A stretch of 64,000 nucleotides of DNA from NCBI GenBank assembly GCA_029008615.1, contig JAQXJI010000037.1, positions 381 to 64,380 on the forward strand, in the 5' to 3' direction. Origin of the DNA: Elusimicrobiota bacterium (lineage in GTDB: Bacteria > Elusimicrobiota > Elusimicrobia > Elusimicrobiales > Elusimicrobiaceae). A program made the position numbers and the translations under genes. Position 1 is the first letter of the stretch. Each line of letters opens with the position of its first letter. The notes under the pieces were generated by a model. That model was given only the letters and a program-made list of their open reading frames with translations, was not told where the DNA came from and did not search any database. Positions 4,610-16,790 of the stretch are shown one piece after another.

Positions 4610-6914
4610 CTTTCTTTTCGTTCAATTTCTTTATCGCGGCTTCTTCTTCCGGCGTGATATTGACTATATTTTTACACTTTGGATATCCGCTGCAACCCAA
4701 AAATGCGCCTTTTGCGCTATGCCTTAAAACAAGCGGTTTGCCACATTTTTCGCACTTTCTGCCGGAATCCAAAGGCCCGCTTGAAGCCACTCTGTTGCCT
4801 TGAGCGTCCACCGAATAAGTATTGCGGCATTTGGGGTAAGCCGAACAAGCCATAAAACGGCCTTTTCTGCCCGTTCTTATAACCATAGGAGAACCGCATT
4901 TTTCGCATTTTTCGGCGGTTTCTTCCGGCGCGGGGAATGAGGATCCGCTTAAATTCTTTTTACCTTGACATTTATCCGGATAGTTTATGCAAGTAAGATA
5001 TTCCCCGTATTTGCTGCGGCGGCGCACCATAGGAGAACCGCAAATCGGGCATTGTTCCCCTTCGGCCACACTCGGCGCGGGTTTGCGCATATTTTTGGAA
5101 GCGTTGTCCAAATCGCGAGTAAATCCGCTGTAAAAACCGCTTATAACTTCCACCCACTTTTTATCGCCTTCGGCGATATCGTCCAAAGTTTCTTCCACGC
5201 CGGCGGTGTAGGAAAGGTCCATAATGTCCTTAAAAAATTCCTTAAGCTGTTCCGTAACGGTTATACCCAAATCCGTCGCGATAAGCTTATTGCCCTTGGC
5301 TTGCTTTTCTATATACTTTCTGTCCATAATGGTTTTTATGGTAGGGGCATAAGTTGAAGGCCTGCCTATGCCGTGCTTTTCCAAGGTTTTAATCAGGCTG
5401 GCTTCGTTATAGTTCGGCGGAGGCGTTGTTTTATGGTCTTTGGTGTCTATGCCCAAAAGTTTTAAAGTATCGCCCTGCTCCAAAGGCGGGAGCAAAGCGG
5501 AAGAATCGTCTTTTGCGTCGTCGTCATTATTTTCGCGTTCGTCGGCTTCCTCTTGATAAACGGAAAGATAACCTTTGAATTTAACCGTCCTGCCGTTGGC
5601 GCGCAGCAGGCATTTTTCTTTGCCGCCGGCGGAAATATCTACGGCCACGGTATTGAACAAAGCTTCCGCCATTTGAGAGGCTACAAAGCGCAGCCAAATA
5701 AGTTCGTAAAGTTTGTATTGATCCGCCGTAAGATAATTTTTAAGGCTTTGCGGAGTTCTGTAAACGTCCGTAGGGTGGATAGACTCGTGCGCTTCCTGCG
5801 CACCTTTTACTTTGCTCTTAAACACCGGCGCTGTTTTAGGTGCATATTCCGGACCGTATTTTTCTTTAATAAATTTTGAAGTCTGCGCTTGAAGCTGTTT
5901 TGACACGTTGAAAGAGTCGGTTCTCATATAAGTTATCAAACCGACGGTCTGCCCGCCGATTTCAATACCTTCGTACAAGCTTTGCGCCACCTGCATAGTT
6001 TTTTGCGAAGTAAAACCTATTTTATTATAAGCGTCCTGCTGCATAGAGCTGGTTATAAAAGGCGGACGCGCTTTTTGTTTGACTTCTTTCTTTTCCACCT
6101 TTTCAACGACAATCGGCCCTTGCCTTAAGGCGGCGTTGACGGGGGCCAAAGATTCGTTGGTGTTAAATACGGTGGATTTTACTTTGTAATCTTCCGCAAA
6201 AAGTTTATAGGTTACTGTTTTTTCTACATTTTTGCCTTCCCATTTAAGCAAGCGGGCGGAAAAAGAAGGTTTTTGATTTTCTTTTTCCAAAAAAGCTTTT
6301 ATCGTCCAGTAAACCTGTTCTTTAAAATCCGCGATTTCCTTGGCGCGTTCGGTTAAAAGGCGCACCGCGACGGACTGCACGCGCCCCGCGCTGAGCCCGC
6401 TGGTTATTTTGCGCCACAAAAGCGGAGAAAGTTTATAACCCACCAATCTGTCCAAAACGCGGCGCGCCTGTTGGGCGTCAACAAGGTTATGGTCTATTCC
6501 GCGGGCGTGTTCGAAAGATTCTTTTACCGCCGTAGGGGTAATCTCGTGGAAGTAAATGCGGCGGGTGTTTTCCGGCTTTAAATGCAGAAGTTCCTGCAAA
6601 TGCCAGGCGATAGCTTCACCTTCGCGGTCAGGGTCGGTGGCGAGGTATACCGTTGAAGCGTTTTTAACGGCCTCTTTAAGTTCACTGATAACCCTGGGTT
6701 TGCCGCTTATTACATAGGTAGGTTTAAAATTGTTTTTTTCGTCTACGCCGATTTCTTTTGAAGGCAAATCGCGCACGTGGCCGAAAGAACTCCTTACGAT
6801 ATAAGAAGAACCCAATATCTTGCTTATCGTTTTCTGCTTTGTGGGGGATTCCACGATAATCAATTCTTTGCCTTTCGGTTTCGCTACGGACGCTTTATTT
6901 TGATTGGTTGCCAT
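4602..6914 (-). CDS. topA: DNA topoisomerase I
   Basis: Toprim motifs IVESPTKQKT and DPDREGE, and the active-site Tyr context ITYMRTDS. The C-terminus carries repeated CxxC...C zinc-ribbon modules (CPICGSPM, CEKCGSPM, CEKCGKPL). Confidence 0.95.
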   Translation of the reverse strand: MATNQNKASVAKPKGKELIIVESPTKQKTISKILGSSYIVRSSFGHVRDLPSKEIGVDEKNNFKPTYVISGKPRVISELKEAVKNASTVYLATDPDREGEAIAWHLQELLHLKPENTRRIYFHEITPTAVKESFEHARGIDHNLVDAQQARRVLDRLVGYKLSPLLWRKITSGLSAGRVQSVAVRLLTERAKEIADFKEQVYWTIKAFLEKENQKPSFSARLLKWEGKNVEKTVTYKLFAEDYKVKSTVFNTNESLAPVNAALRQGPIVVEKVEKKEVKQKARPPFITSSMQQDAYNKIGFTSQKTMQVAQSLYEGIEIGGQTVGLITYMRTDSFNVSKQLQAQTSKFIKEKYGPEYAPKTAPVFKSKVKGAQEAHESIHPTDVYRTPQSLKNYLTADQYKLYELIWLRFVASQMAEALFNTVAVDISAGGKEKCLLRANGRTVKFKGYLSVYQEEADERENNDDDAKDDSSALLPPLEQGDTLKLLGIDTKDHKTTPPPNYNEASLIKTLEKHGIGRPSTYAPTIKTIMDRKYIEKQAKGNKLIATDLGITVTEQLKEFFKDIMDLSYTAGVEETLDDIAEGDKKWVEVISGFYSGFTRDLDNASKNMRKPAPSVAEGEQCPICGSPMVRRRSKYGEYLTCINYPDKCQGKKNLSGSSFPAPEETAEKCEKCGSPMVIRTGRKGRFMACSAYPKCRNTYSVDAQGNRVASSGPLDSGRKCEKCGKPLVLRHSAKGAFLGCSGYPKCKNIVNITPEEEAAIKKLNEKKDA

Positions 6915-6944
6915 TTTATAAGTCCTCTGAATATATATAAAATC

Positions 6945-8066
6945 TTAAAATTTCTTTCTGCTGTATTTGCCGTCGGCGCAGCTGATTACGCCGCTTACTT
7001 CCAGCGAAAACAAAACGCCGGAAAGTTCGCTTATCGGCATATTTAAAGCCAAAGCCAAATCATCCGTACTGACGGAACCCGAGCCTATGGCTTCAACTAC
7101 CGAGCGTTCCCGCTCGGAGAGTTCCTCCAACGGGGGCTTTTCTTCATTATAAAGTTTTTTAGTGTTAAGGCCAAGTTTTAAGTTTAAAGGCAGGCAGTCT
7201 ATAATATCCGCCGCACTTAAAACCATACCGGCGCCTTCCTTGATAAGCTTATTTGGGCCGGCGCTTTGCGGGGAATCTATCGGGCCGGGAACCGCCAAAA
7301 CGTCTATACCTTGCTCCAAAGCCATTTTGGCAGTAATAAGCGCGCCGGATTTTACTTCCCCCTCGACTACCACCACAAGCTTTGAAAGCCCCGCTATCAA
7401 GCGGTTACGCCTTGGAAAATGCTGAGCCAAAGGCGGAGCGTCAAAAGGGAGTTCGGATATTATCGCGCCGCCGGTATCAAGTATGCCGCGGGCGAGCTCC
7501 CTGTTTTCCGCAGGATAGCACCTGCCTATGCCCGTTCCGATAAGAGCAAGCGTAGGTTTGCCGTTTCTGACGGCGGCGGAATGAACCGCAGTATCAACTC
7601 CTCTTGCCAAACCGCTTACCAAAACGACCCCGGCCAAGGCCAAATCTTCCGCAAGCTTGGAAGCGGCTCTTCTGCCGTAAGGCGTTATTTTGCGCGTGCC
7701 GACTACGGCCGCGTTTGCGCTGTTTTCGGCGGGCAATACTCCGCGCACATATAAAACCAAAGGCGGCTCTTTTATGCTTAAAAGTTCTTCGGGGTAGCCT
7801 TCTTCCCCTTTAAAATAAATTTTGCCGTTTACTTTATCGGTTTTTCCAAATTCGGCTTCGGCGTCAAGGCGAGAAGCGGTTTCCAAAAATTTAGAGGCCG
7901 TTTCAAGCGATATTTTGCCTTCCTCGCTTAAACGTTCCGGGGTTTGTTTAAGGATTTCACACGGGGAAGAAAAAATTTCCAAAAGGCGTCCGAGCCAATC
8001 GGCCCTTAAAAAGCTGAAAGAGTTTATTTTGATTAAAGCCAGTTTTTCTTCGTATGACAAAGCCAT
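6945..8066 (-). CDS. dprA: DNA-processing protein DprA (Smf)
   Basis: Rossmann-like DprA core (GLARGVDTAVH, IGTGIGRCYP) with a C-terminal winged-helix-like tail. The dprA-topA neighbourhood is the conserved arrangement. Confidence 0.9.
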   Translation of the reverse strand: MALSYEEKLALIKINSFSFLRADWLGRLLEIFSSPCEILKQTPERLSEEGKISLETASKFLETASRLDAEAEFGKTDKVNGKIYFKGEEGYPEELLSIKEPPLVLYVRGVLPAENSANAAVVGTRKITPYGRRAASKLAEDLALAGVVLVSGLARGVDTAVHSAAVRNGKPTLALIGTGIGRCYPAENRELARGILDTGGAIISELPFDAPPLAQHFPRRNRLIAGLSKLVVVVEGEVKSGALITAKMALEQGIDVLAVPGPIDSPQSAGPNKLIKEGAGMVLSAADIIDCLPLNLKLGLNTKKLYNEEKPPLEELSERERSVVEAIGSGSVSTDDLALALNMPISELSGVLFSLEVSGVISCADGKYSRKKF

Positions 8067-8074
8067 AATAAAAC

Positions 8075-9613
8075 CTATATGTCGCTTACGCCTTTTCTGT
8101 CAAAAGGGCGGTATTGCATAACTTCTATAATATGTTCTTTTTTAATATCTTTGCAGCCGGCCAAATCGGCTATCGTGCGCGCCGTCTTTAGGATTTTATC
8201 CAAACTTCTGGCGGAAAGGCCGAGCTTCTTCATAGCAAGTTCCAAAACCTCGCCACCGCCGGGGGGAAGAGGGCAAAACTCTTTTATTTCCGAAACCGTC
8301 ATAAAAGCGTTGGCGGTGGTTGCGCCGTTTTTAAAACGCTCTTTTTGCATTTCGCGCGCGGCGATGACGCGCTCCCTTATCTGCGCGCTGGTTTCACCTT
8401 CGGATTTTTTATTCCAGTCTTTATAATCCACCGGGTTTAAATTTACGGTTAAATCTATTCTGTCCAACAAAGGGCCGGACACTTTGGATTTATATCGGCT
8501 TATTTGCAAAGGCGTGCAGTTGCAGGTTTTTACATTATGGCCGTGATAACCGCAAGGGCAGGGATTCATAGCCGCTATCAAAGTGAACTTGGCCGGAAAG
8601 GTAAAACTGTCTTTGGCGCGCGATATCGTTACTTTAAATGTTTCAAGCGGTTCTCTTAACACCTCTAAAGACGAGCGGGAAAATTCCGCAAATTCGTCAA
8701 GGAACAAAACGCCGTTATGAGCAAGGCTGACTTCGCCCGGGCGCGGCGTTTGTCCGCCGCCTATTAAAGCTATATTGGAAATCGTATGATGCGGATCTCT
8801 GAAAGGCCGCCCCGGCATTTTGCCGTTCTTGCCCAAAAGTTTGCATACGGAATAAATCTGCAAAATATCAAGCCGCTCTTCCTTGGTTAAAGGAGGCAGA
8901 ATGCCGGCAAAACGCTTGGCAAGCATACTTTTGCCCGTACCCGGAGGGCCGACCAAAAGCACATTATGCCCGCCGGCCGCCGCTATTTCCAAAGCTCTTT
9001 TGGCCAAGGCTTGGCCTTTGACTTCGCTGAAATCCCCGGCGGAAACTTCCGGCAAGAAATCCTCTTCCGCAGCCACAGGGCAAGGCGGGAACTCCGCCCG
9101 GCCTTCCAACATATCAACGGTTTGCTTTAAGCTTACAGCGCCGAAAGCTTCAACCCCGGCGTATGCGGCTTCGGACATATTGTCAAAAGGAATTACGGCT
9201 TTGCGGCGTTTGCCTTTTTTAAGAGATATCAGCATAGGCAGCACTCCGCCGCAGGAATGTGTTTTGCCGTTAAGCCCCAAAGAACCTATAAAAACCATTT
9301 CGGAAGCTTTGGCGGCGGCTTCTTTGCTCAGCTGACCGCCGGCCGAAAGTATGCCTAAAGCTATCGGCAAATCAAAATGCGCGCCGGCTTTTTTAACTTC
9401 CGCCGGCGCAAGATTAACGGTAATTTTTTTTAAAGGTACGTCAAAACCGCTGTTTCTTATGGCGGCCAGCACACGGTCTTTGGCTTCTTTCACTTCCTGA
9501 TCCGGCAGGCCGACCAAAGAAAATGACGGCATACCGGCGGAAATATCAACTTCCACCGAAACCAAAAATCCCTCCAAAGCGTTGATACAGCTTGATACTA
9601 TGCCGGCTAACAT
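8075..9613 (-). CDS. comM: YifB/ComM-family Mg-chelatase-like AAA+ ATPase
   Basis: N-terminal Lon-protease-like domain, Walker A GPPGTGKSMLA, Walker B VLFLDEF, a CPCG zinc motif, and a C-terminal Mg_chelatase_C-like tail. Confidence 0.9.
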   Translation of the reverse strand: MLAGIVSSCINALEGFLVSVEVDISAGMPSFSLVGLPDQEVKEAKDRVLAAIRNSGFDVPLKKITVNLAPAEVKKAGAHFDLPIALGILSAGGQLSKEAAAKASEMVFIGSLGLNGKTHSCGGVLPMLISLKKGKRRKAVIPFDNMSEAAYAGVEAFGAVSLKQTVDMLEGRAEFPPCPVAAEEDFLPEVSAGDFSEVKGQALAKRALEIAAAGGHNVLLVGPPGTGKSMLAKRFAGILPPLTKEERLDILQIYSVCKLLGKNGKMPGRPFRDPHHTISNIALIGGGQTPRPGEVSLAHNGVLFLDEFAEFSRSSLEVLREPLETFKVTISRAKDSFTFPAKFTLIAAMNPCPCGYHGHNVKTCNCTPLQISRYKSKVSGPLLDRIDLTVNLNPVDYKDWNKKSEGETSAQIRERVIAAREMQKERFKNGATTANAFMTVSEIKEFCPLPPGGGEVLELAMKKLGLSARSLDKILKTARTIADLAGCKDIKKEHIIEVMQYRPFDRKGVSDI

Positions 9614-9617
9614 AAGA

Positions 9618-10727
9618 TTAAAGGAAAGTCATCTCCACCAGTTCGGGCGTAATTCTGTCTATGGAGAAATTGGAATAATATCTCCTTAAAATCTTGGCCG
9701 AAAATTCTTCGGAAGTTTTTATGTTGGCCTGAACTTCAAAAGTGGCGTTGGAATTGGTATATTTAACCAAACTGAAATCTTCCACTTCTCTAAGCTGACG
9801 CATAATGTTCTGCATTTCTTCCAAACGCTCTATGGTGTTTACGTTTTTGACTATAAATTTAAAAGTCTTCGCGGAATTGACAGCCATACTTATAGGCTCG
9901 GCCGTTTGCGCCCCGGCGTTTTCGCACGCGCCGGTCAAAGCTTTTTGCTGGGCGATGGAAAGTACTCCGTCAAGCCCGGTAAAATTATCGGCCGAATCGG
10001 TAATAACCTGATAGTTGCTGGCCGCGATAACTTTAATGTTGGCTTTGGCCCTTACCGGTTTAAAAGAAGTCGTAAGCTGGGACGCGCTTTCAAGCTCGTC
10101 CGCGGCGGCCTCGGCCAAGATTATATATCTTGCGCCTTCTTTCTTGGCCTTGTCTACGACCTGCGTATAATCTTCTAGATTGTTTTGGCTCAAATTTCCG
10201 CCGTCTATCAAAACGTAAGGATAATCTTTCAAAGCTTTATATATGCCTTGGCGGCAATACTGCTTTAAAGATATCTCGCCGTTGACGGTTTCCCTTGAAG
10301 CCACAAAAATATTAGTCTTTTTAACGTAATCCGCGCTTTGCAGTTCTTTAACTTTCGAAGAAAGTTCGCTGACCAACACCATAACGCGCGCTTCGCCGTA
10401 ATAACTTTCCCCTTTTCTGTAAGAAGTCGTCAAATAAGACTTTCTGATATACCCCGCCGGGTTATCCATAATCTGCTTTTTGACTTCGGGCGGGAACTCA
10501 ACCGTACTGTTTGAAGATAAAAACACCCTTGTTGCCTTTTCAAGAGCGTTAATTTCCGCTTGTTTAAGGACTTTTTTCTTCATTGCGGATTTGGAAATTT
10601 CCTCATAAGGAACCGTGGCCGAAGCCTGCACATATTCCCCCGCGCCTTTCGGCCCGATATTAAAACGCTGACAAGCCGTCAAAAGCAGAACGCAGCAGCA
10701 TAAAAGAGTAAGTTTTTTCATATACAC
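9618..10727 (-). CDS. hypothetical lipoprotein
   Basis: Signal peptide plus lipobox (LLLTAC). I recognise no catalytic motif. It sits 3 nt downstream of the 1487-aa ORF and 4 nt upstream of comM. Start could also be the third codon (ATG at 10721). Confidence 0.65.
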   Translation of the reverse strand: MYMKKLTLLCCCVLLLTACQRFNIGPKGAGEYVQASATVPYEEISKSAMKKKVLKQAEINALEKATRVFLSSNSTVEFPPEVKKQIMDNPAGYIRKSYLTTSYRKGESYYGEARVMVLVSELSSKVKELQSADYVKKTNIFVASRETVNGEISLKQYCRQGIYKALKDYPYVLIDGGNLSQNNLEDYTQVVDKAKKEGARYIILAEAAADELESASQLTTSFKPVRAKANIKVIAASNYQVITDSADNFTGLDGVLSIAQQKALTGACENAGAQTAEPISMAVNSAKTFKFIVKNVNTIERLEEMQNIMRQLREVEDFSLVKYTNSNATFEVQANIKTSEEFSAKILRRYYSNFSIDRITPELVEMTFL

Positions 10728-10730
10728 CTC

Positions 10731-13700
10731 TTATTTAAGAACGTCGCCCAACACTCTTACGTAAGCACTGGGGTTTTTAATGCTTTCGGCGTTGATTATG
10801 CCGCAGCGGATCATCATCACTTCAAGCATATGGGTAAGGATATCGTAGAAGTTATCCCTTATGGATTCTTGGCACACGGAAAGGGCAGGGCCTAAAATTA
10901 TCGCGCCTTTAAGATTTTTATTGTCGCAGATATTGGCTATCTTAAAAGCGGCGGAAATTATATGTTCCGTGGAATAGGAACTCTTCAAAGCGAAGTTAAA
11001 TCCGCCTTTTATGCCGAGTTCTTTTGCTTTTTGCATTACGCAGAAAGCCATCCATTTGAATTTATCGGCCTGATCCTGCGGATAAAAGAACCCGAAATTA
11101 CCCCAATCGGTATTTTCGCTTCTGTTAATGCTTACGATATCGGCGAAGTCCTTTTTGACTATTTCGCTGTTTTCGTTCTCGCCGTTGACGGCCAGCATTT
11201 CGTTAAGAATCTGCTCATAGGACATCTGTATAAGCCCGCTGTTATTTATACGGCGGCTTAAAACTTTAGCCCTTTTGATATTTCTGGCGACGGAGCCCAA
11301 ATTGACTTTATCAAAATTAAGAAAACCCTGGGATTGCACTTCGTTTAAGCCGAGTTCCGCGTCTTCCATCATTTTGGCGTATATTTTGGAGAAATGCTGC
11401 TGCCGAGGATGTTTAAGTTCCGACACCCAGCCTTGATCCAAACGGAAGCGGACAAGTTCTTCAAAGCGGGCCAAACTTTCCGGCGGATATTTGGAGGAAA
11501 TAAGAATTTGTTTCTTTTCCTGCAAGAAGCGGTTGAGCACGCGGGAAATAAATTCCCTGTTGTGCTCGTTGACGGCGGTAAGGTGTATATCATCGATAAT
11601 CAGCACTTCCACGGAGGAGAAAAAATCCTCCAAATGCTTCATATTGCCTTCTTCCACATATCTTTGTACGCCTCTTGAAAAGCGCACCCCGTTTGTAAAG
11701 AAAATCTTTTCCTGGCCGATTTTCATAGCAAGTTCATAGCCCATCGCATTAAGAAAATGAGTCTTGCCCGTGCCGCTGTCGCCATACACCATAAACGGGT
11801 TGTGCATAGTGCCGATATTATCAATAACGCTCATAGCAGTAGCGTGGGCGAAACGGTTGGAAGCCATATCCATTTTGTCAAAAGTAAACAAAGGATTTAA
11901 AGGTATTTCCAAGGGCCAGTTATTTCTTTTATAAACCTGCCCGGCCGAAACTAAAATCGTATGATCCACCATAGTCGCCGCGCGCGGAGCGGGGGCCGCG
12001 TGTTGTTGGGCTGGATTTGAAACCGGCCTTTGCACAGGCGTATGATGTTGGGCCGGATTCGGCATTTGAGGCGGATTTACCGTCGGACGCGGAGCTGCGG
12101 GGCGCGGCTGCATTCCAGGCGCTGCCGGCCTTGGAGCGGAAGGAGCGTTAACCTTGGGAGGAATCGGCGCGGACGGCGCTTTTGGGGCCGGAGAAACAGC
12201 TTGCCCCGGCACCGCCGGTCTGTTCAATTTGTTGTTATTGTTAAAATCGTCTTGTGTCATATCAACTTTTATCTCCCCACTAAGTATTTGTTTTTCAATT
12301 CTTTCTTTTATTTTTTTTGCAAAATCATTTTCAACATATTCTTTTTCTGAAGATTGAACCGTAGGCACTATCGGCGCGGACGGAGGCGCAGGCGGAGCCG
12401 GCGGTTTCGGCGGAGTGTTTAAGGCCGCCGCGACAGTTGCCGGAGGCTCCTGTGCGACAGCGGCGGAAACTTCAGCAACAGGCTTTTCCTGTTCGGATTC
12501 AAAAACCGGCTCCGGTTCAACGGAAGGGCCTTCAACGGAAGCGGCGGAAGGAACCGGAGATTCCCCCGACGGAACTTCCGCAATTTTAGAATACTCCTCT
12601 TGAACTTCCGGCATATCAAAAACATTACCAACTTCGGCCGGGCCTTCTTTTTCCTGCACCGATGCGGCTTCAAAAGAAGGCTGATCCGGCGCGGATTCAA
12701 ATGCGGCTTCTTCTACTGATTCTTCCGAAATATCCGCCGCAGAATTTTGAACATCATCGCCAGACGGATTAAAAATGCTGTGATTATCGTCAAGTTCGGT
12801 TATATTCGTTTCTATACTTTCGGCGTGTTCGGCCGCATCTTCAAAAGCCGCGCTCATATCAAAGACTTGAGGATTATCCTCCTGCGCGGAGGCTGCGGGA
12901 ACGCCTTTCTTTAAATCTATTATTCCGTCCGGATTCGGAACATTGTCGGCGGCGGAAAGCTTATCGTTTTCGGCGGCGACGGCATCCTCTTCCAAAATCA
13001 CCGGAGCGGGTTTTAAAGGTTTCGGCGCAACCGGCGGCGTCGGTATAACGGCTTTGGCGGCAGGTTCTTGCTTAGGCTCGGGTTTAATCGCTGCAGGTTT
13101 TGCCATATTGCCGCCAAAAGCAGGCGGCGCGGGCACAAAAGGTTTTTTTGAAGCGGAATTGCCTTCCGCAGCCGGCTTAAAAGCGTTAGACGTAAAGATA
13201 AACGGGGTTTGCGTCGTCTGAGCAGTATTTTCCCTCACCGTGTTTTTGGGAGTGGAAGGCCTTTGCAAACTCGGTTTAATTGCGGGTTCGACGGGCTCTT
13301 CCTCCGCGGATTGCGCTTGGGATTGTTCCGCAGGCACAATTTTCGCCGCAGTTGATTTTTCTTCTTTCAAATTTTCTTGCTTTGGCGCAGCCTCGGCTTG
13401 GCCGGGAACTTCCTGCTTTATTACGGAAGTGGCCGGCTTTTCGGAAGAAGATAAAAGATTAGGCACATCCATAAAATCATCAAAATTGCCCAAAGGCTTC
13501 TTTTCCGGAGGCATTACCGGCGTTTTTGTTGAGGTAGTGGCCGCAGGAGCCGCACCGCCTTGTAAAATTTCATCAACTTTATTTTGTCCGCCAGTTTCTT
13601 CGGGGTCGGCGTAAAATTCGCATATCGTTTCCGCGGCGAAGATATCATCCACCTCAATCTTTGCGGAAAGGTCATTGTTCGTTGTCGGCGCCAAAATTTC

Positions 13701-15194
13701 CTCTATCGGCACGGACGCCTTTCCTTCCGGCGCGATACTGTGAAAAACGCTATTAGTATCCCGAGACGGAACCGTTTTTGCGGGCGCCGTCTGAGGGGTA
13801 AATTCTTCCGTTATTTTTTTGGAACCCAAATTCGCAAAAGGATTCGGGGCCGGGACCGGGGCCGAGACTTCGGTTTTATGCCCTTCGGCTACGGAAGGAG
13901 AGGCAGGCTCTTGGGCTGTCATAACCTCAGCAGGATTTGCGGCTTCGGGAGGAGTTTGAACCTTCGGCAAAGGCGAGGGCTCTTTATGTTCGCGCTCCTT
14001 TAAATAGTCGGAAGCTTTTGACGCCAGCTTGCCAAAGAATCTGCCAAAAAATCCGCCTGATTTTTCTTCTTTTGCCGAATGAGCGGCCTTGGGAACGTCG
14101 TTTGCGGCGGAATTGCCAACGCCCGCCGTTACGGCCGGCATAAATTTATTTGCGGGCGCGGCGGCCTGATGCGCGGGAATATCCTTTTTATAAGGATCAT
14201 CCACCAACATTTCTCTGTTTTGGCGGCCGGGTGCGGCATTGGCCAGATCGCCCATAAGCCTTAAAGAAGGCTGTTGAACAGTCTGATTTTGGACAGTTTC
14301 ATCAGAATACTGCCCGCTTATTAAAGTGGCTATACCCATTGTAGCGGTTTTAGTGCCTTTCGTTAAAGTGCGAAAGCCCTCTTCCGAAGGATAACTTTTA
14401 AGTTTTGTGCCTTCGGCGGAGCTTAAATTGATAAAAGTGCCGTCGCCCACATCTACGTGGTTTTCCAATTCAATACTTAAAGAATCGACACTGGCCAAAT
14501 CCTGCCTTATTGAAAAACTGCCGTCGGATAACTGAACTTTGCCGGTGGAACTCTTTTCAAGCGGGCCGAAGATATCGGTCGGCGAAACTTTGGTTTCTTC
14601 TTTTTTGGGGCTTTCCGCTAAAAAATCTTTTTTTACAGCATTCGTCTCGGTCGGAATTGCGGCGGGGGCCTCGCGCCTGGGAGCGGAAGGCACTTGCCGA
14701 TGCGGCTCAAAAGCCGGCTTTGCCTGCTGAGGCGTAAAAGCCGGGCGCTGCGGGAGTTTGGGCTTTGGCGCGGCGGAAGGCTCTCGCGGAGCAAAAAACG
14801 CATTATGCTCTTGTAAAGTTTCTTCCGACACCTGCGCGGGGAAAGCCCCTTCGGAAGGCTCCTTCGCACCGGGGGCACGGCCCAGTATTTCCGTCTTCGG
14901 AGAAATCAAATCCAAATCTATGTGTTTGGTTCTTTCGTTTACGTCGCCTTCAATTACGACCTGCTGGGAAATTCCTTCTATTTTTATACGGATTTTTTCC
15001 AGCATACTGTCGTCGGTAATATTATAAAGTTCGAAAACGTGGGTAAAGGGAGGAACTTTCGCCTCTATCAAACGGCAAAACGCCGATAACTCCGCCGAAA
15101 TATTCTGCGCGGAATCATCCGTGCCCTCAACCAAAAGGACGTATATTGAATTATCGGTAAGGGTGTTCTCCCTTATTTCCCAACGTTTTATCAT
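10731..15194 (-). CDS. giant DnaA/Hda-like AAA+ protein with a ~1000-aa low-complexity region
   Basis: Uninterrupted 4.46-kb ORF. Residues ~1099-1320 align by eye to DnaA domain III. Matches include LNPLFTFDKMDMASNRF, Walker A GDSGTGKTH (nt 11761..11790), Walker B LIIDDIHL, a box VI-like ISSKYPP, and VRFRLDQGW (cf. SRF..G). No DnaA domain IV motif is seen. Confidence 0.8.
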   Translation of the reverse strand: MIKRWEIRENTLTDNSIYVLLVEGTDDSAQNISAELSAFCRLIEAKVPPFTHVFELYNITDDSMLEKIRIKIEGISQQVVIEGDVNERTKHIDLDLISPKTEILGRAPGAKEPSEGAFPAQVSEETLQEHNAFFAPREPSAAPKPKLPQRPAFTPQQAKPAFEPHRQVPSAPRREAPAAIPTETNAVKKDFLAESPKKEETKVSPTDIFGPLEKSSTGKVQLSDGSFSIRQDLASVDSLSIELENHVDVGDGTFINLSSAEGTKLKSYPSEEGFRTLTKGTKTATMGIATLISGQYSDETVQNQTVQQPSLRLMGDLANAAPGRQNREMLVDDPYKKDIPAHQAAAPANKFMPAVTAGVGNSAANDVPKAAHSAKEEKSGGFFGRFFGKLASKASDYLKEREHKEPSPLPKVQTPPEAANPAEVMTAQEPASPSVAEGHKTEVSAPVPAPNPFANLGSKKITEEFTPQTAPAKTVPSRDTNSVFHSIAPEGKASVPIEEILAPTTNNDLSAKIEVDDIFAAETICEFYADPEETGGQNKVDEILQGGAAPAATTSTKTPVMPPEKKPLGNFDDFMDVPNLLSSSEKPATSVIKQEVPGQAEAAPKQENLKEEKSTAAKIVPAEQSQAQSAEEEPVEPAIKPSLQRPSTPKNTVRENTAQTTQTPFIFTSNAFKPAAEGNSASKKPFVPAPPAFGGNMAKPAAIKPEPKQEPAAKAVIPTPPVAPKPLKPAPVILEEDAVAAENDKLSAADNVPNPDGIIDLKKGVPAASAQEDNPQVFDMSAAFEDAAEHAESIETNITELDDNHSIFNPSGDDVQNSAADISEESVEEAAFESAPDQPSFEAASVQEKEGPAEVGNVFDMPEVQEEYSKIAEVPSGESPVPSAASVEGPSVEPEPVFESEQEKPVAEVSAAVAQEPPATVAAALNTPPKPPAPPAPPSAPIVPTVQSSEKEYVENDFAKKIKERIEKQILSGEIKVDMTQDDFNNNNKLNRPAVPGQAVSPAPKAPSAPIPPKVNAPSAPRPAAPGMQPRPAAPRPTVNPPQMPNPAQHHTPVQRPVSNPAQQHAAPAPRAATMVDHTILVSAGQVYKRNNWPLEIPLNPLFTFDKMDMASNRFAHATAMSVIDNIGTMHNPFMVYGDSGTGKTHFLNAMGYELAMKIGQEKIFFTNGVRFSRGVQRYVEEGNMKHLEDFFSSVEVLIIDDIHLTAVNEHNREFISRVLNRFLQEKKQILISSKYPPESLARFEELVRFRLDQGWVSELKHPRQQHFSKIYAKMMEDAELGLNEVQSQGFLNFDKVNLGSVARNIKRAKVLSRRINNSGLIQMSYEQILNEMLAVNGENENSEIVKKDFADIVSINRSENTDWGNFGFFYPQDQADKFKWMAFCVMQKAKELGIKGGFNFALKSSYSTEHIISAAFKIANICDNKNLKGAIILGPALSVCQESIRDNFYDILTHMLEVMMIRCGIINAESIKNPSAYVRVLGDVLK

Positions 15195-15197
15195 AAG

Positions 15198-15833
15198 CTA
15201 ATCCGCAACTATTTTAACGCCCGAACTTGTGCCGAGCCTGCTTGCGCCGGCTTCTATCATTTTAAGGGCGTCCTCTTTGCTCCTGATTCCGCCGGAGGCT
15301 TTTACGGCCAGGCCGGAAGCTTCGGCCATAAGTTTTACATCTTCGGCCTTTGCGCCCGCGTCCGAAAATCCGGTGGAAGTCTTTACAAAATCCACACCGC
15401 ATTCGGCGCAAATTTTGCAGACGGTTTTCTTTTCTTCTTCGGTAAGATAAGAAGTTTCAATAATAACCTTGAGAGTTTTACCTTTACTGGCTTCACGCAC
15501 GGCGGCGATATCGGCTTTTACTACGTCAAGCATACCGCTTTTAAGCGCACCGATATTAATTACCATATCGACTTCGTCCGCGCCTTCTTTTATCGCCTGC
15601 TCCGCTTCAAAAGCCTTTACCCTGGAGGTATTGGCGCCCAAAGGGAAACCTATTACCGTGCAAACTTTTACGCCGCTGCCTTTAAGCAAATCGGCGCAAA
15701 AGCTGACCCAAAAAGGATTTACGCACACCGAAGCAAAACCGTACTCGGCCGCTTCCGCGCAAAGCTTGGTTACATCCTGTTTGGAGGCAACCGCTTTGAG
15801 TATGGTGTGATCTATATATTTGGCTAAGTTCAT
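15198..15833 (-). CDS. deoC: deoxyribose-phosphate aldolase
   Basis: N-terminus IDHTILK and the Schiff-base lysine context DFVKTSTGF. Length is ~211 aa. Confidence 0.9.
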
Positions 15834-15835
15834 AA

Positions 15836-16588
15836 TTAATTATAGTCAATGATTCTGACGAATTTTTCCGCGACCAAAGCCTGCCCGCCCACGAGCACGC
15901 CGTCCACGTCTTCTTTAGCCATAATGGCGTCTACGTTTTCGGCCTTGACGCTGCCGCCGTAAAGGATTCTTACCGCATCGGCAAAGTCTTTGCCGAACTG
16001 TTCGGCCAAAACCGCTCTTATGGCTTTATGAGTTTCCTGAGCCTGTTCCGGGGTGGCGGTTTTGCCTGTGCCTATCGCCCAAACCGGTTCATAAGCGACA
16101 ACCATATCTTTAAGCTGTTCGGCCGTAAAGCCTTTAAGACCGTTGACGAGCTGACCTTTGATGACTTCTTCGGTTTTATTGCTTTCTCTCTGTTCAAGAG
16201 TTTCGCCGACACAGAATACGACTACCAAACCGTGTTTTAAAGCGGCGGCGACTTTTTTGTTCAAAATTTCATCTGTATCGCCAAAAAGGCTTCTTCTTTC
16301 GCTGTGGCCCAAAATGACGTGCGTCGCGCCCGCGCCTTTTACCTGTACGGGAGAAACTTGGGAAGTGAACGCGCCTTTATCTTCATAAAAGCAATCCTGC
16401 GCGGCTACTTTAAAACCTGTGCCAACCGAAGCTTTTACCACGGCGTTAATGCTGGTAAAGCTGGGGGCCACCATAATATCGGCGTTGTTTTTATTTTTGG
16501 CGGCTTTTAAACCTTCAATAAGGTTTACGGATTCTTCAACGGTATTGTGCATTTTCCAATTACCGGCTATGAAAGGTTTTCTTGACAT
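15836..16588 (-). CDS. tpiA: triosephosphate isomerase
   Basis: [16 protein letters not shown] and [14 protein letters not shown] 15836..16681 is trimmed to the ATG at 16588 ([14 protein letters not shown]), which is preceded by GGAG. Confidence 0.92.
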
Positions 16589-16760
16589 TGGTAAAACTCC
16601 TAGAAAAAATTTTGATACTGCTGATATATATATATTATATATATAATATTTAGATTTTAGGAAATTTTGCTTATTTTGCAAACAATATCCCGCGCCGAAT
16701 CGTTAATATCATCCGCAAAACGACGCCTGATGAAAAACAAAAACTCCGCTTGTCCGGTAT

Positions 16761-16790
16761 GAAAAAGGCGGAGAATTTTATTCTCCGCCC
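16761..16790 (-). terminator. intrinsic terminator downstream of tolB
   Basis: Stem ggcggagaa (16767..16775) pairs with ttctccgcc (16781..16789). On the minus strand it is followed by a T-run (complement of aaaaa 16762..16766). Confidence 0.6.

What the first reader, a model, noticed from the sequence alone, without database searches (positions are those of the whole stretch)
10731..15194. 1487-aa protein: DnaA/Hda-type AAA+ module placed after ~1000 aa of low-complexity sequence
Residues ~1099-1320 match DnaA domain III element by element:
- LNPLFTFDKMDMASNRF compares with LNPKYTFDNFV.G.SN.
- Walker A is YGDSGTGKTHFLNAMG.
- Walker B is VLIIDDIHL.
- ISSKYPPESL compares with TSDR.P.EL.
- VRFRLDQGWVSELKHP compares with L.SRF.WGL...I..P.
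- A lid region contains an Arg (SVARNIKRA).

Upstream of this module are an ~85-aa N-terminal domain of unknown type and ~970 aa of Pro/Ala/Glu/Gln-rich sequence. A 4.46-kb open frame in DNA of this composition is very unlikely to be accidental. I do not recognise this architecture as a described family. It is not a plausible canonical DnaA: the length is wrong, there is no domain IV, and there is no dnaN neighbour.
Basis: partly seen in the sequence, partly recalled or inferred. Interest (0 to 1): 0.7.

Follow-up and report, generated by a model that had tools for sequence, protein, structure and literature searches.

The report
DnaA-derived ATPase on giant disordered tether
This is a real, conserved 1,487-residue gene of gut Elusimicrobia in which a DnaA-type ATP-binding module that lacks DnaA's DNA-binding parts is joined to two undescribed small domains by a disordered tether of about 1,000 residues; it is a phylum-specific offshoot of the replication initiator, and its job is still unknown.

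Summary
Window 10731-15194 (-) is one 1,487-aa ORF. Pfam PF00308 (Bac_DnaA) matches aa 1099-1257 at E=2.8e-30, and there is no DnaA_N or DnaA_C match. An AlphaFold model (pLDDT 90) superposes on DnaA domain III.

One is a 128-aa Rossmann-like C-terminal domain. The other is a conserved acidic-aromatic motif in the linker.

The architecture is a family. 262 Elusimicrobiota species genomes encode it. The best 80 of these loci, plus four from look-ups, were analysed: 72 of 84 carry it as one ORF of 839-1,624 aa. dN/dS is 0.01-0.03 for ATPase plus C-domain and 0.2-0.25 for the linker.

Walker A and B are invariant. DnaA's ssDNA-binding residues and DnaA-DnaA contact residues are replaced, and the arginine finger varies (K/R/Q/S).

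Elusimicrobium minutum has the canonical dnaA-dnaN-recF-dciA-gyrB operon (inferred from Emin_0004 = dciA), so this is a paralogue, not the initiator.

In non-gut relatives the gene sits in a PilT / partner / gene / GAF-kinase cassette. That cassette lies next to a sugar-phosphate microcompartment locus and upstream of comM-dprA-topA.

Best reading: an ATP-dependent protein-interaction switch that does not bind DNA. The process it serves is unresolved. It is a new variant of a known kind.

The parts
10731..15194 (-). Whole gene, 1,487 aa plus stop codon
   Evidence: It is the only long ORF here (translation). Orthologous single ORFs occur in 72 of 84 related loci.
14940..15194 (-). N-terminal domain, aa 1-85 (MIKRWEI...). 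By eye the pattern is beta-beta-alpha-beta-alpha. The domain type is undescribed.
   Evidence: It is conserved from gut Elusimicrobiaceae to groundwater Elusimicrobia (alignment A3; HMM hits). dN/dS is 0.07-0.09. There is no Pfam hit and no PDB sequence hit. It is unrelated to DnaA domain I (hhalign probability 0.5%). A paralogous copy heads the neighbouring partner gene in L085 (BLASTP 2e-9).
11925..14939 (-). Disordered linker, aa 86-1090, rich in Ala, Pro, Glu, Lys, Ser and Thr
   Evidence: Composition is. There are no notable tandem repeats. It is 67% identical to the nearest relative with 77 gapped columns, against 99% for the ATPase plus C-domain. dN/dS is 0.20-0.25. Whole-protein length varies from 839 to 1,624 aa across genomes.
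13590..13667 (-). Conserved linear motif in the linker, aa 510-535 (SAKIEVDDIFAAETICEFYADPEETG). Consensus: P[LV][ED]DI[FL]xA[EKQ]Tx[YC][DE][MF][FY].
   Evidence: Several columns exceed 90% identity across 66 non-close relatives. Deep-branch proteins carry a related E[DE]xFxxEPxPF[DE] just after the N-domain.
14001..14060 (-). Aromatic/basic stretch, aa 379-398 (SGGFFGRFFGKLASKASDYL). It is a possible amphipathic helix and is only weakly conserved.
   Evidence: It is seen in the sequence and found by regex. Alignment occupancy is ~50% and identity 20-40%. Any role is inference only.
11190..11912 (-). DnaA-type AAA+ module, base plus lid, aa ~1095-1335
   Evidence: PF00308 at E=2.8e-30. TIGR00362 at 132.8 bits. 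PDB DnaA domain III matches. AlphaFold2 model with pLDDT 90. Foldseek TM 0.76-0.77 to 8bv3 and 2z4r. The two-helix insert after strand 2, the initiator-specific motif, is at model helices 95-107 and 111-120.
11757..11783 (-). Walker A, GDSGTGKTH (aa 1138-1146)
   Evidence: The Lys is kept in 132 of 133 family members.
11583..11606 (-). Walker B, VLIIDDIH (aa 1197-1204)
   Evidence: Both Asp residues are kept in 133 of 133 members.
11427..11462 (-). Box VII region, EELVRFRLDQGW (aa 1245-1256). R1251 aligns with the E. coli arginine finger R285. L1247 replaces R281. W1256 replaces L290.
   Evidence: HMMER alignment to B. subtilis DnaA. Family census: finger position K53, R40, Q17, S11 (K53, R38, Q17, S11 once the two conservative-branch members, both R, are set aside). 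Residue roles are taken from PMC5742627.
10734..11117 (-). C-terminal domain, aa 1360-1487. It is a four-fold beta/alpha (Rossmann/flavodoxin-like) fold and replaces DnaA domain IV.
   Evidence: AlphaFold2 model of the domain alone, pLDDT 89.9. Foldseek gives only generic alpha/beta matches: Argonaute MID TMq 0.60-0.66 and lumazine synthase ~0.55, both at E~4e-4 or weaker. The viral library gave nothing specific. There is no PDB sequence hit. It is unrelated to domain IV. Only 170 clusters among 1.84 billion representatives carry it, all listed matches lie at or within ~25 residues of the C-terminus, and 9 of the 10 tested also have PF00308.
15198..16681 (-). Upstream operon genes: the DeoC-family aldolase (15198-15833) and triosephosphate isomerase (15836-16681). 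They are probably the remnant of a sugar-phosphate microcompartment locus.
   Evidence: Pfam hits. Relatives L087, L088 and L090 have TIM-PTAC-BMC-EutN-AldDh-BMC-RpiB-EutN-EutN-DeoC-BMC in this position. The window DeoC is 211 aa and lacks the N-terminal targeting helix seen in those loci.
4602..10727 (-). Downstream operon genes: a 369-aa lipoprotein of unknown family (9618-10727), ComM (8075-9613), DprA (6945-8066) and topoisomerase I (4602-6914)
   Evidence: Pfam hits. The same order is conserved in L001, L088 and, with insertions, L003, L091 and L092. Intergenic gaps are 3-30 nt.
16766..16790 (-). Terminator-like hairpin between tolB and TIM. It is the probable upstream boundary of the transcription unit.
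   Evidence: The stem has 11 bp with 6 G-C pairs and is followed by a T-run. A promoter-like site lies at 16682-16654. These are consensus matches only.

Best explanation
The gene encodes a cytoplasmic offshoot of the replication initiator DnaA. It keeps DnaA's ATP-binding AAA+ core but not its DNA-handling parts. Most likely it works as an ATP-dependent protein-interaction switch held on a very long flexible tether.

**Shown**
- The AAA+ module is of the DnaA (initiator) clade and includes the initiator-specific two-helix insert.
- Walker A and Walker B are invariant across the family.
- Domain IV is replaced by a Rossmann-like domain, and domain I by an unrelated ~85-aa domain.
- The residues DnaA uses for single-stranded DNA are replaced: V211, K243 and R245 align with Q, N and H.
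- The residues DnaA uses for DnaA-DnaA contacts are replaced: R227, R281 and L290 align with S, L and W.
- Most of these replacements are themselves conserved within the family.
- The arginine finger is present in this protein but is K, R, Q or S across the family.
- The two terminal domains recur in an ATPase-less partner protein encoded next door in non-gut relatives.

**Inferred**
- ATP binding, rather than fast hydrolysis, toggles self-association or association with partners.
- The N-domain, the C-domain and the acidic-aromatic linker motif are docking sites.
- The linker acts as a spacer whose length and chemistry matter little.
- The process served is probably the control of chromosome replication or of incoming-DNA processing. 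This rests on descent from DnaA and co-transcription with comM-dprA-topA. It is the weakest step.
For: **ATPase identity**
- PF00308 at E=2.8e-30, and DnaA is the best NCBIfam match.
- PDB DnaA domain III hits by sequence and by fold (TM 0.76-0.77).

**Motif census over 133 family modules** (residue roles from PMC5742627)
- Walker A Lys is kept in 132 of 133, and Walker B Asp-Asp in 133 of 133.
- None has Lys or Arg at the K243 position. The R245 position is never Arg (Q56, H29 and others; K in 6 of 131).
- Among the 131 members outside the conservative branch, the V211 position is Q in 91, the R281 position is L or A in 117, and the L290 position is W in 108.

**Terminal domains**
- They are unrelated to DnaA domains I and IV. 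The AlphaFold2 models are confident.
- The C-domain matched only 170 clusters among 1.84 billion representatives, always C-terminal; of ten distant hits tested, nine carry a DnaA ATPase and the tenth looks spurious.
- The partner gene carries a homologue of the C-domain (hhalign probability 95%, E=3.9e-8; pairwise E=5e-6 and 2e-8).
- In L085 the partner also carries a copy of the N-domain (E=2e-9).

**Selection and tether**
- dN/dS is 0.009-0.03 for ATPase plus C-domain, 0.07-0.09 for the N-domain and 0.20-0.25 for the linker.
- Linker length and composition vary freely. Whole proteins range from 839 to 1,624 aa in Elusimicrobiaceae. One relative is 2,568 aa with a Glu/Ala/Lys-rich linker. Seven loci are split within the linker.

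**Origin**
- A conservative branch (P0216, P0221, P0227-P0231) has the same ends. Its ATPase is 56-58% identical to canonical DnaA, and only the K243 and R245 positions are lost.

**Paralogue, not initiator**
- E. minutum DciA is Emin_0004, inside the dnaA-dnaN-recF-gyrB operon.

**Operon**
- The gene is co-oriented with TIM-DeoC upstream and lipoprotein-comM-dprA-topA downstream, with 3-30 nt gaps.
Against: - No biochemical or genetic data exist for any member.
- No partner has been identified, and the N-domain was not modelled.
- The link to replication rests only on ancestry and on neighbours. dprA-topA adjacency is widespread in bacteria (my own knowledge, not tested here).
- The DnaA-DnaA interface residues are changed in this lineage. 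This argues against simple co-assembly with DnaA.
- In non-gut relatives the nearest neighbours are a PilT ATPase, a GAF histidine kinase, lipoproteins and a microcompartment locus. None of these are replication genes.
- The Foldseek matches of the C-domain are generic.
- Loss of DNA binding is inferred from residue changes and has not been measured.
Confidence: 0.4

Rival explanations
1. It is an organiser or positioning factor for a cytoplasmic organelle. The ATPase and its ATPase-less partner would tether, space or assemble the sugar-phosphate (SPU) bacterial microcompartment. The logic would resemble ParA-type McdA with the disordered adaptor McdB, or large disordered scaffolds such as CsoS2. 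Gut lineages that lost the shell would have kept the ATPase for a residual role.
For: - In L087, L088 and L090 the gene follows directly on a complete SPU-type locus: TIM-PTAC-BMC-EutN-AldDh-BMC-RpiB-EutN-EutN-DeoC-BMC.
- L085, L089 and the window keep TIM, DeoC and/or RpiB in the same place.
- The partner gene starts with an amphipathic helix (DKEVEAILSDLDSILSGL) followed by a Pro-rich linker. Its layout resembles the targeting helices on DeoC and AldDh of the same loci.
- SPU loci are reported in Elusimicrobia (PMC11585597).
Against: - In none of the Elusimicrobiaceae loci whose gene content was looked at (the 64-kb window; L001/L002) is there a shell gene near the gene; the other gut loci were not annotated.
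- The window's DeoC has lost its targeting helix, yet the ATPase plus C-domain is under very strong purifying selection.
- L003, L091 and L092 show no microcompartment genes in the DNA available.
- Neither SPU paper mentions a DnaA-like gene.
- The resemblance to a targeting helix was judged by eye only.
Confidence: 0.18
2. It is a functional analogue of Hda. A DnaA-like AAA+ protein would be recruited to the DNA-loaded sliding clamp through a motif in the linker. There it would stimulate ATP hydrolysis on DnaA, the process called regulatory inactivation of DnaA.
For: - The module is DnaA-like, lacks a DNA-binding domain and, in this protein, has an arginine at the finger position.
- The tail of the conserved linker motif, [KI][YC][DE][MF][FY], loosely resembles clamp-binding pentapeptides such as QADMF and QLDLF (the comparison is from my own knowledge).
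Against: - The Hda model scores 43 bits against a cut-off of 195.
- No QLxLF-type motif is found.
- The finger residue is K, Q or S in most of the family.
- Residues at the DnaA-DnaA interface are replaced.
- The protein is six times the size of Hda.
- There is no dnaN linkage.
Confidence: 0.1
3. It is a component of a DNA-uptake or type IV pilus signalling module. The ancestral cassette PilT / partner / ATPase / GAF histidine kinase would regulate pilus retraction or the fate of incoming DNA. The DnaA-derived ATPase might act like a DnaC/DnaI-type loader for the ComM helicase.
For: - The order partner-ATPase-GAF kinase recurs in six of eight non-gut contexts (L003, L085, L087, L090, L091, L092). 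PilT lies just upstream in L085, L087 and L090.
- comM and dprA lie downstream in the window, L001, L003, L088 and L092.
- DnaC, DnaI and IstB are the next-best AAA+ matches.
Against: - Scores for the loaders are far below their cut-offs: DnaC 23 against 357, DnaI 36.5 against 228.
- Gut lineages have lost PilT, the partner gene and the kinase from the locus.
- Two to four lipoprotein genes separate the gene from comM in most non-gut loci.
- There is no direct evidence of any interaction.
Confidence: 0.12
4. It is a second, or the only, replication initiator of these bacteria.
For: Automated pipelines call some members 'chromosomal replication initiator protein DnaA'. The conservative branch has a near-canonical domain III.
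Against: - There is no domain IV and no domain I.
- The protein is below the DnaA cut-off.
- There is no dnaN neighbour, no cluster of DnaA boxes and no turn in GC skew within the window.
- E. minutum has the canonical operon.
Confidence: 0.02
5. It is an artefact, a decaying pseudogene, or a mobile-element or defence ATPase of the IstB type.
For: - There is a weak IstB_IS21 Pfam hit (E=4e-9) and a P-loop-level PADLOC hit.
- Seven loci are split within the linker.
Against: - The single ORF is conserved in 72 of 84 loci from independent assemblies, with fixed chromosomal synteny.
- dN/dS is well below 1 in every region.
- There is no transposase neighbour.
- IstB scores 45 bits against a cut-off of 200.
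- There are no tandem repeats that could cause misassembly.
Confidence: 0.01

Closest known systems
DnaA, the bacterial replication initiator (domain III, PF00308 / TIGR00362)
   Same: - The AAA+ base and lid have the same fold, including the initiator-specific two-helix insert.
- The Walker A (GxxGxGKTH) and Walker B (IDD) signatures match.
- Arg is present at the finger and sensor-2 positions in this protein.
- DnaA is the best sequence and fold match.
- The overall layout is similar: small N-domain, variable linker, AAA+ module, C-terminal domain.
   Different: - The N- and C-terminal domains are unrelated to domains I and IV.
- The C-domain is alpha/beta, not a helix-turn-helix.
- The ssDNA-binding residues (V211, K243, R245) and the interface residues (R227, R281, L290) are replaced.
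- The sensor-1 Asp is replaced by Lys.
- The linker is about 1,000 aa.
- There is no dnaN context.
- The protein is below the NCBIfam cut-off (132.8 against 343.9).
Hda / HdaA, the DnaA-related regulatory inactivator of DnaA (TIGR03420)
   Same: It is a DnaA-derived AAA+ protein with no DNA-binding domain. It is thought to act through protein contacts made by a short motif outside the ATPase.
   Different: - The Hda model scores only 43 bits against a cut-off of 195.
- No recognisable clamp-binding motif is present.
- The arginine finger is not conserved in the family.
- There are extra N- and C-terminal domains and a giant linker.
- The family is confined to Elusimicrobiota, whereas Hda is proteobacterial (my own knowledge).
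DnaC / DnaI helicase loaders and IstB (IS21 helper ATPase)
   Same: They belong to the same initiator/loader AAA+ clade. They are the weaker secondary hits.
   Different: - Their scores are far below the cut-offs.
- There is no loader N-terminal domain and no transposase partner.
- The family is closer to DnaA than to any of them.
FtsK (analogy of architecture only)
   Same: An N-terminal anchoring domain is joined to a C-terminal ATPase by a long Pro/Gln-rich linker whose length varies between species (my own knowledge).
   Different: - The ATPase fold is different: RecA-like in FtsK, AAA+ here.
- There are no membrane segments here. The highest 19-residue hydropathy is 1.25 and lies inside folded domains.
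- There is no homology.
McdA/McdB carboxysome positioning and CsoS2-type disordered scaffolds (analogy only)
   Same: An ATPase works with a largely disordered partner, and both are encoded beside a microcompartment locus.
   Different: - The ATPase class is unrelated (ParA against DnaA-type AAA+).
- No evidence of shell binding exists.
- The gene persists where the shell genes are gone.

Membership tests
Canonical DnaA (TIGR00362 / PF00308 + PF08299 + PF11638) | AAA+ domain III of DnaA type | tested here: met
   PF00308 at E=2.8e-30. Foldseek TM 0.76-0.77 to DnaA domain III.
Canonical DnaA (TIGR00362 / PF00308 + PF08299 + PF11638) | Whole-protein score above the curated NCBIfam cut-off | tested here: not met
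   132.8 bits against a cut-off of 343.9.
Canonical DnaA (TIGR00362 / PF00308 + PF08299 + PF11638) | C-terminal helix-turn-helix domain IV that binds DnaA boxes | tested here: not met
   No PF08299 hit. The C-domain is a beta/alpha fold. hhalign against a domain IV profile gives probability 0.06%.
Canonical DnaA (TIGR00362 / PF00308 + PF08299 + PF11638) | N-terminal domain I (DnaA_N) | tested here: not met
   No PF11638 hit. hhalign against a domain I profile gives probability 0.5%, with a positive control of 100%.
Canonical DnaA (TIGR00362 / PF00308 + PF08299 + PF11638) | ssDNA-binding H and B motifs (E. coli V211 and R245) and K243 | tested here: not met
   The window protein has Q1177, H1211 and N1209. 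No family member has Lys or Arg at the K243 position. Residue roles are from PMC5742627.
Canonical DnaA (TIGR00362 / PF00308 + PF08299 + PF11638) | Arginine finger (R285) and box VII R281 | tested here: inconclusive
   R1251 is present in the window protein, but the family shows K53, R40, Q17, S11 at this position. The R281 position is L in the window protein and L or A in 117 of the 131 members outside the conservative branch.
Canonical DnaA (TIGR00362 / PF00308 + PF08299 + PF11638) | dnaA-dnaN (origin-proximal) gene context | tested here: not met
   None of the ~50 window ORFs scanned against Pfam is dnaN, recF or gyrB. There is no turn in GC skew. No cluster of DnaA boxes is present.
Canonical DnaA (TIGR00362 / PF00308 + PF08299 + PF11638) | Origin binding and unwinding activity | not testable with these tools
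   This needs biochemistry.
Hda / HdaA (TIGR03420, NF006571) | Score above the curated cut-off | tested here: not met
   43.1 bits against 194.8, and 19.9 against 297.
Hda / HdaA (TIGR03420, NF006571) | Clamp-binding motif (QL[SP]LPL / QLxLF) outside the ATPase | tested here: not met
   A regex scan found none. The linker motif tail only loosely resembles one.
Hda / HdaA (TIGR03420, NF006571) | Conserved arginine finger needed to act on DnaA-ATP | tested here: inconclusive
   It is present in this protein but not conserved across the family.
DnaC / DnaI / IstB loaders | Score above the curated cut-offs; loader or transposase partner context | tested here: not met
   IstB 45 bits against 200, DnaI 36.5 against 228, DnaC 23.2 against 357. 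No transposase or dnaB is among the ten flanking genes checked.
Initiator/loader clade of AAA+ ATPases | Two-helix insert (initiator-specific motif) after strand 2, plus Walker A and B | tested here: met
   Model helices 95-107 and 111-120 follow strand 90-94. There is a gap-free alignment to B. subtilis DnaA over this stretch. Walker A and B are invariant.
SPU (sugar-phosphate utilisation) microcompartment locus | DeoC (pfam01791) and RpiB (pfam02502) together with shell proteins (PF00936, PF03319), as defined in PMC8217296 | tested here: not met
   The window has DeoC and TIM only. No RpiB or shell gene is among the ~50 window ORFs scanned. The definition is met in relatives L087, L088 and L090.

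The most novel reading that the evidence does not exclude
The protein is the ATPase of an unrecognised Elusimicrobial module with the ancestral order PilT / ATPase-less partner / DnaA-derived ATPase / GAF histidine kinase. The module is wedged between a microcompartment that is thought to burn DNA breakdown products and the DNA-uptake genes comM and dprA. On this reading a DnaA domain III was recruited not for replication but to organise or regulate the fate of imported DNA, or the organelle that consumes it. Its Rossmann-like C-domain, whose best fold matches are Argonaute MID domains, would act as a nucleotide or 5'-phosphate sensor. The partner's N-terminal helix would act as a microcompartment-targeting peptide.
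Probability: 0.15. Interest if true: 0.8.

Novelty: new variant of a known kind. Interest (0 to 1): 0.55.

Why it matters
- DnaA-derived regulators are so far known mainly from Proteobacteria (Hda, HdaA, HdaB). How other phyla restrain or couple initiation is largely open.
- This is a phylum-wide paralogue present in 262 species genomes and under very strong purifying selection. It has kept ATP binding while losing each DNA-contact feature examined, and it has gained two new domains and a tether that can exceed 1,000 residues.
- It offers a natural experiment on what a DnaA AAA+ core can do without DNA.
- It supplies two small domains for structural and functional study that have no Pfam or PDB sequence match and are not described in the papers searched.
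- Through its non-gut relatives it gives a testable link between a DnaA-like ATPase, a histidine kinase, pilus retraction and a DNA-scavenging microcompartment.
- It also corrects database annotation, since some members are labelled as the replication initiator.

Tried and rejected
- **PDB profile searches.** Searches with the C-domain and N-domain profiles gave nothing significant.
- **Foldseek, full model.** The 413-aa model returned only AAA+ proteins, so the C-domain had to be re-modelled alone.
- **Foldseek, C-domain alone.** Its PDB and viral matches are generic alpha/beta folds. I do not treat the Argonaute MID resemblance as homology.
- **Partner homology, first attempt.** A narrow C-domain profile failed to detect the upstream partner's domain. 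A broader 192-sequence profile then gave probability 95%. The first negative was therefore a sensitivity problem.
- **Extra domain copies.** A search for extra N- or C-domain copies, or a cryptic domain inside the linker, in the window and in 90 loci found none.
- **Canonical DnaA search.** The third homologue search used the near-canonical ATPase of P0216 to pull out the Elusimicrobial canonical DnaA. It returned only Firmicutes-type DnaA at 56-58% identity plus family members, so canonical dnaA had to be inferred from the DciA paper.
- **Herlemann 2009.** The E. minutum genome paper is not held in the library.
- **DnaA domains in held DNA.** tblastn with DnaA domains I and IV found nothing in the window or the loci.
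- **Clamp-binding motif.** The regex scan was negative.
- **Internal start.** There is no Shine-Dalgarno-like sequence before M1075, so an internal start is not supported.
- **Tandem repeats.** None of note are present.
- **Defence and phage libraries.** Only P-loop-level hits were found.
- **Exact-sequence look-up.** The 1,487-aa protein is not on record.
- **BLAST coverage along the linker.** This was uninformative because gapped alignments ran through the whole linker. It was replaced by column conservation from a MAFFT alignment.

Full report
**1. The observation**

The window holds a single ATG-started ORF at 10731..15194 on the minus strand, encoding 1,487 aa. Pfam places PF00308 (Bac_DnaA ATPase) at aa 1099-1257 (E=2.8e-30, 106 bits). 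It reports no PF08299 (DnaA_C) or PF11638 (DnaA_N) even at E<=1. Among NCBIfam models DnaA is the best match (TIGR00362, 132.8 bits), ahead of IstB (45), Hda (43.1), DnaI (36.5) and DnaC (23.2). All are far below their curated cut-offs.

The closest solved structures by sequence are DnaA domain III chains (8bv3 at E=7e-25). An AlphaFold2 model of the last 413 residues, built on 51 homologues, has pLDDT 90.4 and pTM 0.85. It superposes on DnaA domain III with TM 0.76-0.77, normalised by target length. The model shows the two helices after strand 2 that mark the initiator/loader clade.

**2.

Residues ~1360-1487 form a separate domain of four beta/alpha units. Modelled alone it has pLDDT 89.9. 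It has no Pfam hit and no PDB sequence hit. Its fold matches are generic small Rossmann/flavodoxin-like folds: Argonaute MID at TMq 0.60-0.66 and lumazine synthase at ~0.55, both at E~4e-4 or weaker.

The middle ~1,000 residues are rich in Ala, Pro, Glu, Lys, Ser and Thr. Entropy is 3.5-3.9 bits and hydrophobic content 15-27%. There is no notable DNA repetition. The region is disordered rather than simple.

The middle is not featureless. A MAFFT alignment of 71 full-length proteins shows one sharp island at aa ~510-535, VDDIFAAETICEFYAD. Its consensus is P[LV][ED]DI[FL]xA[EKQ]Tx[YC][DE][MF][FY], and several columns exceed 90% identity. Deep-branching members carry a related E[DE]xFxxEPxPF[DE] just after the N-domain.

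**3. Is the gene real?**

A scan of one genome per GTDB species found 262 loci encoding relatives. Apart from two MAGs that look mislabelled (section 9), the 80 kept are Elusimicrobiota or unclassified uncultured bacteria. They include the isolates Parelusimicrobium proximum Dip518, Elusimicrobium posterum Dip510 and E. simillimum. The closest is a Hadza gut MAG at 99% identity over the ATPase and C-domain.

I analysed 84 loci. In 72 of them N-domain, linker, ATPase and C-domain lie in one ORF of 839-1,624 aa. In 7 the gene is split within the linker into two adjacent ORFs. Five are cut by contig ends.

Against the four closest relatives, the ATPase plus C-domain is 93-99% identical with no gaps. 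The linker is 45-67% identical with 77-295 gapped columns. dN/dS is 0.009-0.03 for ATPase plus C-domain, 0.07-0.09 for the N-domain and 0.20-0.25 for the linker. The long frame is therefore conserved, selected and not an assembly accident. Read support itself could not be checked.

**4. What kind of DnaA relative is it?**

I aligned 133 family ATPase modules and mapped them through B. subtilis DnaA to E. coli numbering. Residue roles are taken from PMC5742627. The census is below. Walker and finger counts are over all 133; the other rows are over the 131 members outside the conservative branch.

| E. coli position | Role | Window protein | Family |
|---|---|---|---|
| Walker A Lys | ATP binding | K1144 | K in 132 of 133 |
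| Walker B Asp-Asp | ATP binding | D1201, D1202 | DD in 133 of 133 |
| V211 (H motif) | ssDNA contact | Q1177 | Q in 91 |
| K243 | ssDNA contact | N1209 | never K or R |
| R245 (B motif) | ssDNA contact | H1211 | Q56, H29; never R, K in 6 |
| R227 (AID-1) | DnaA-DnaA contact | S1193 | D39, S20, N17, A17 |
| R281 (box VII) | DnaA-DnaA contact | L1247 | L or A in 117 |
| L290 (AID-2) | DnaA-DnaA contact | W1256 | W in 108 |
| D269 (sensor 1) | tight nucleotide binding (my own knowledge) | K1235 | K in 88 |
| R285 (Arg finger) | senses neighbour's ATP | R1251 | K53, R40, Q17, S11 |
| R334 (sensor 2) | ATP hydrolysis | R1304 | R98, K18 |

Profile-profile tests show the N-domain is unrelated to DnaA domain I (probability 0.5%). 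They also show the C-domain is unrelated to domain IV (0.06%). The positive control was 100%.

The reading that follows is that ATP binding is retained. DNA binding and canonical DnaA-DnaA contacts are not. They are replaced by residues that are themselves mostly conserved, which implies a new, family-specific interface.

**5. Origin**

A profile of the C-domain was searched against 1.84 billion cluster representatives. It found only 170 proteins. In every listed hit the match lies at or within ~25 residues of the C-terminus. Of the ten distant ones tested, nine carry PF00308.

Among them is a conservative branch (P0216 = OGS45754.1, P0221, P0227-P0231). It has the same N- and C-domains. Its ATPase scores 235-241 bits on PF00308 and is 56-58% identical to canonical DnaA of Firmicutes. 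It keeps R227, D269, R281, R285 and L290, and has lost only K243 and R245. Synteny (TIM ... DeoC upstream) shows these are orthologues of the window gene.

The family therefore looks like a DnaA duplicate whose ends were replaced. Its ssDNA-binding basic residues are missing even in the most DnaA-like branch, so they were probably lost early. Most lineages then diverged fast.

**6. Is it the initiator?**

No. No dnaA, dnaN, recF or gyrB is among the ~50 window ORFs scanned against Pfam, which are all but one of the non-nested ORFs of at least 120 aa. tblastn with DnaA domains I and IV finds nothing in the window. Cumulative GC skew falls almost monotonically with no sustained turn. DnaA-box-like 9-mers are scattered, and none is perfect.

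In E. minutum the DciA gene is Emin_0004. The authors place it, for Elusimicrobia, between recF and gyrB of the dnaA-dnaN-recF-gyrB operon (PMC5109545). An Endomicrobium endosymbiont has a dnaA pseudogene (PMC5174739). A canonical dnaA in the genome of this particular window was not checked directly.

**7. Context**

In the window a terminator-like hairpin lies at 16790-16766. It is followed by TIM, a DeoC-family aldolase, the gene, a 369-aa lipoprotein of unknown family, ComM, DprA and topoisomerase I. All are on one strand with 3-30 nt gaps.

Eight contexts from non-gut Elusimicrobia reveal what is probably the ancestral order:
1. A sugar-phosphate (SPU-type) microcompartment locus: TIM-PTAC-BMC-EutN-AldDh-BMC-RpiB-EutN-EutN-DeoC-BMC.
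2. A PilT-type ATPase.
3. A partner gene.
4. The DnaA-like gene.
5. A GAF histidine kinase.
6. Two to four lipoprotein genes.
7. ComM, a LysM protein, DprA and TopA.

L088 has both the microcompartment block upstream and the lipoprotein-ComM-DprA-TopA-Xer-ROK block downstream. This ties the two halves together.

The partner protein has three parts:
- It begins with either an N-domain copy (L085; BLASTP 2e-9) or an amphipathic N-terminal helix (DKEVEAILSDLDSILSGL).
- A Pro-rich or acidic disordered stretch follows.
- It ends in a domain homologous to the C-domain. hhalign gives probability 95%, E=3.9e-8 over 114 columns. Pairwise E-values among partners are 5e-6 and 2e-8.

The gut lineage, including this window, has lost the shell genes, PilT, the partner and the kinase from the locus. 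Its DeoC is 211 aa and lacks the N-terminal targeting helix present on DeoC and AldDh in L087 and L088. SPU loci are defined by DeoC (pfam01791) plus RpiB (pfam02502) and are proposed to metabolise DNA breakdown products (PMC8217296). They are reported in Elusimicrobia (PMC11585597). Neither paper mentions a DnaA-like gene.

**8. How it most likely works**

Shown:
- An ATP-binding DnaA-clade core.
- Loss of DnaA's DNA-contact and self-contact residues.
- Two undescribed terminal domains that also occur in an ATPase-less neighbour.
- A tether whose length and chemistry are free. It is Pro/Ala-rich here and Glu/Ala/Lys-rich in the 2,568-aa P0130, and it is naturally severed in seven loci.
- One conserved docking-type motif.

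Inferred: ATP binding toggles assembly of the core with itself or with partners, while the end domains and the motif dock it elsewhere. I put 0.4 on this general mechanism.

The process it serves is unresolved. Ancestry and the comM-dprA-topA operon point to replication or DNA processing. The non-gut neighbourhood points to a microcompartment, pilus or kinase module (rivals at 0.18 and 0.12). A strict Hda-like role is possible but poorly supported (0.10). There is no clamp motif, and the finger is not conserved. Initiator, mobile-element, defence and artefact readings are essentially excluded.

**9. Novelty and verdict**

No paper in the held library describes this architecture. Databases label members generically, or wrongly as DnaA. 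The ATPase is a known kind. The domain combination, the two end domains and the phylum-restricted cassette are new. I classify it as a new variant of a known kind, with interest 0.55.

Also seen in passing:
- Two MAGs labelled Spirochaetes and Muribaculaceae carry this Elusimicrobial locus and are probably mislabelled.
- The rest of the window is ordinary chromosome. It includes the Tol-Pal genes, a GlcNAc PTS, a uvrD-type helicase, the glycine cleavage system and a pyruvate:ferredoxin oxidoreductase.

Noticed in passing
window 15198-16681; loci L087 1-6119, L088 1029-8004, L090 1-2985: The TIM and DeoC genes just upstream of the finding look like the remnant of a sugar-phosphate (SPU-type) microcompartment locus. 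Non-gut relatives have the full set in the same position: TIM-PTAC-BMC-EutN-AldDh-BMC-RpiB-EutN-EutN-DeoC-BMC. The window's DeoC (211 aa) lacks the ~100-aa N-terminal extension with a targeting helix seen there.
   Followed up: partly
L085 7346-15136; L087 6131-11770; L090 3449-10285; L091 622-5846; L092 1-3910; L003 4404-10387: There is a recurrent cassette in non-gut Elusimicrobia: (PilT) / partner gene / DnaA-like gene / GAF histidine kinase (/ response regulator). The partner has an N-terminal amphipathic helix or an N-domain copy, a disordered stretch, and a homologue of the C-domain. The gut lineage lacks all but the DnaA-like gene.
   Followed up: partly
L001/L002, L017/L018, L035, L076, L077 (Elusimicrobium posterum Dip510, complete genome): In seven loci the gene is split within the linker into two adjacent ORFs, one with N-domain plus linker and one with linker, ATPase and C-domain. 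In L077 the two ORFs overlap in different frames. I could not decide whether this is real gene fission or a frameshift error.
   Followed up: partly
L088 8001-15707 (protein P0130): This family member is 2,568 aa. Its ~2,000-aa linker is Glu/Ala/Lys/Arg-rich, which looks like a long charged helix or coiled coil, rather than Pro-rich. This suggests the linker acts as a spacer whatever its chemistry.
   Followed up: no
window 9618-10727 (-): A 369-aa lipoprotein (signal peptide ...LLLTAC) has no Pfam, PADLOC or PHROG hit. It is conserved at or near the position downstream of the DnaA-like gene from gut to groundwater Elusimicrobia. In several lineages a ~150-aa lipoprotein precedes it, and GNA1162-like and CsgG/LpoB-like lipoproteins follow it.
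   Followed up: partly
window, whole: There are 22 matches to the DnaA-box consensus TTATCCACA with one mismatch, against 9.8 +/- 3.1 expected. None is perfect, and they are scattered rather than clustered. The excess is unexplained and may reflect oligonucleotide bias.
   Followed up: no
L042 (UQJU01000009.1) and L049 (CAVKWQ010000016.1): Records titled 'uncultured Spirochaetes bacterium' and 'Muribaculaceae bacterium' carry this Elusimicrobia-specific gene at 54-55% identity. They are probably mis-binned or mislabelled MAGs.
   Followed up: no
window 14001-14060 (-), aa 379-398: The stretch SGGFFGRFFGKLASKASDYL is aromatic and basic and could be an amphipathic, membrane-touching helix. It is only weakly conserved among relatives.
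   Followed up: no
window 707-2809 (-), 20555-21052 (-), 21817-22665 (-), 54685-55257 (-): These four ORFs of 700, 165, 282 and 190 aa have no Pfam hit at E<=1e-5. The 282-aa ORF lies directly upstream of a 252-aa HisKA+HATPase ORF (21049-21807). That ORF is the window's only match to the kinase domain of the cassette's GAF kinases, at 27-29% identity.
   Followed up: partly
window 15836-16681 (-): The listed TIM ORF starts at a TTG and has a 30-aa leader of low plausibility. The Pfam match begins at residue 36, and a Met at residue 31 ([14 protein letters not shown]) is the likelier start.
   Followed up: no
window 31786-34278 (-): A single 830-aa protein fuses PTS EIIA, HPr and Enzyme I. It lies next to an EIIC-EIIB gene and next to nagA- and nagB-like genes. 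This is a compact sugar-uptake operon, probably for N-acetylglucosamine.
   Followed up: no
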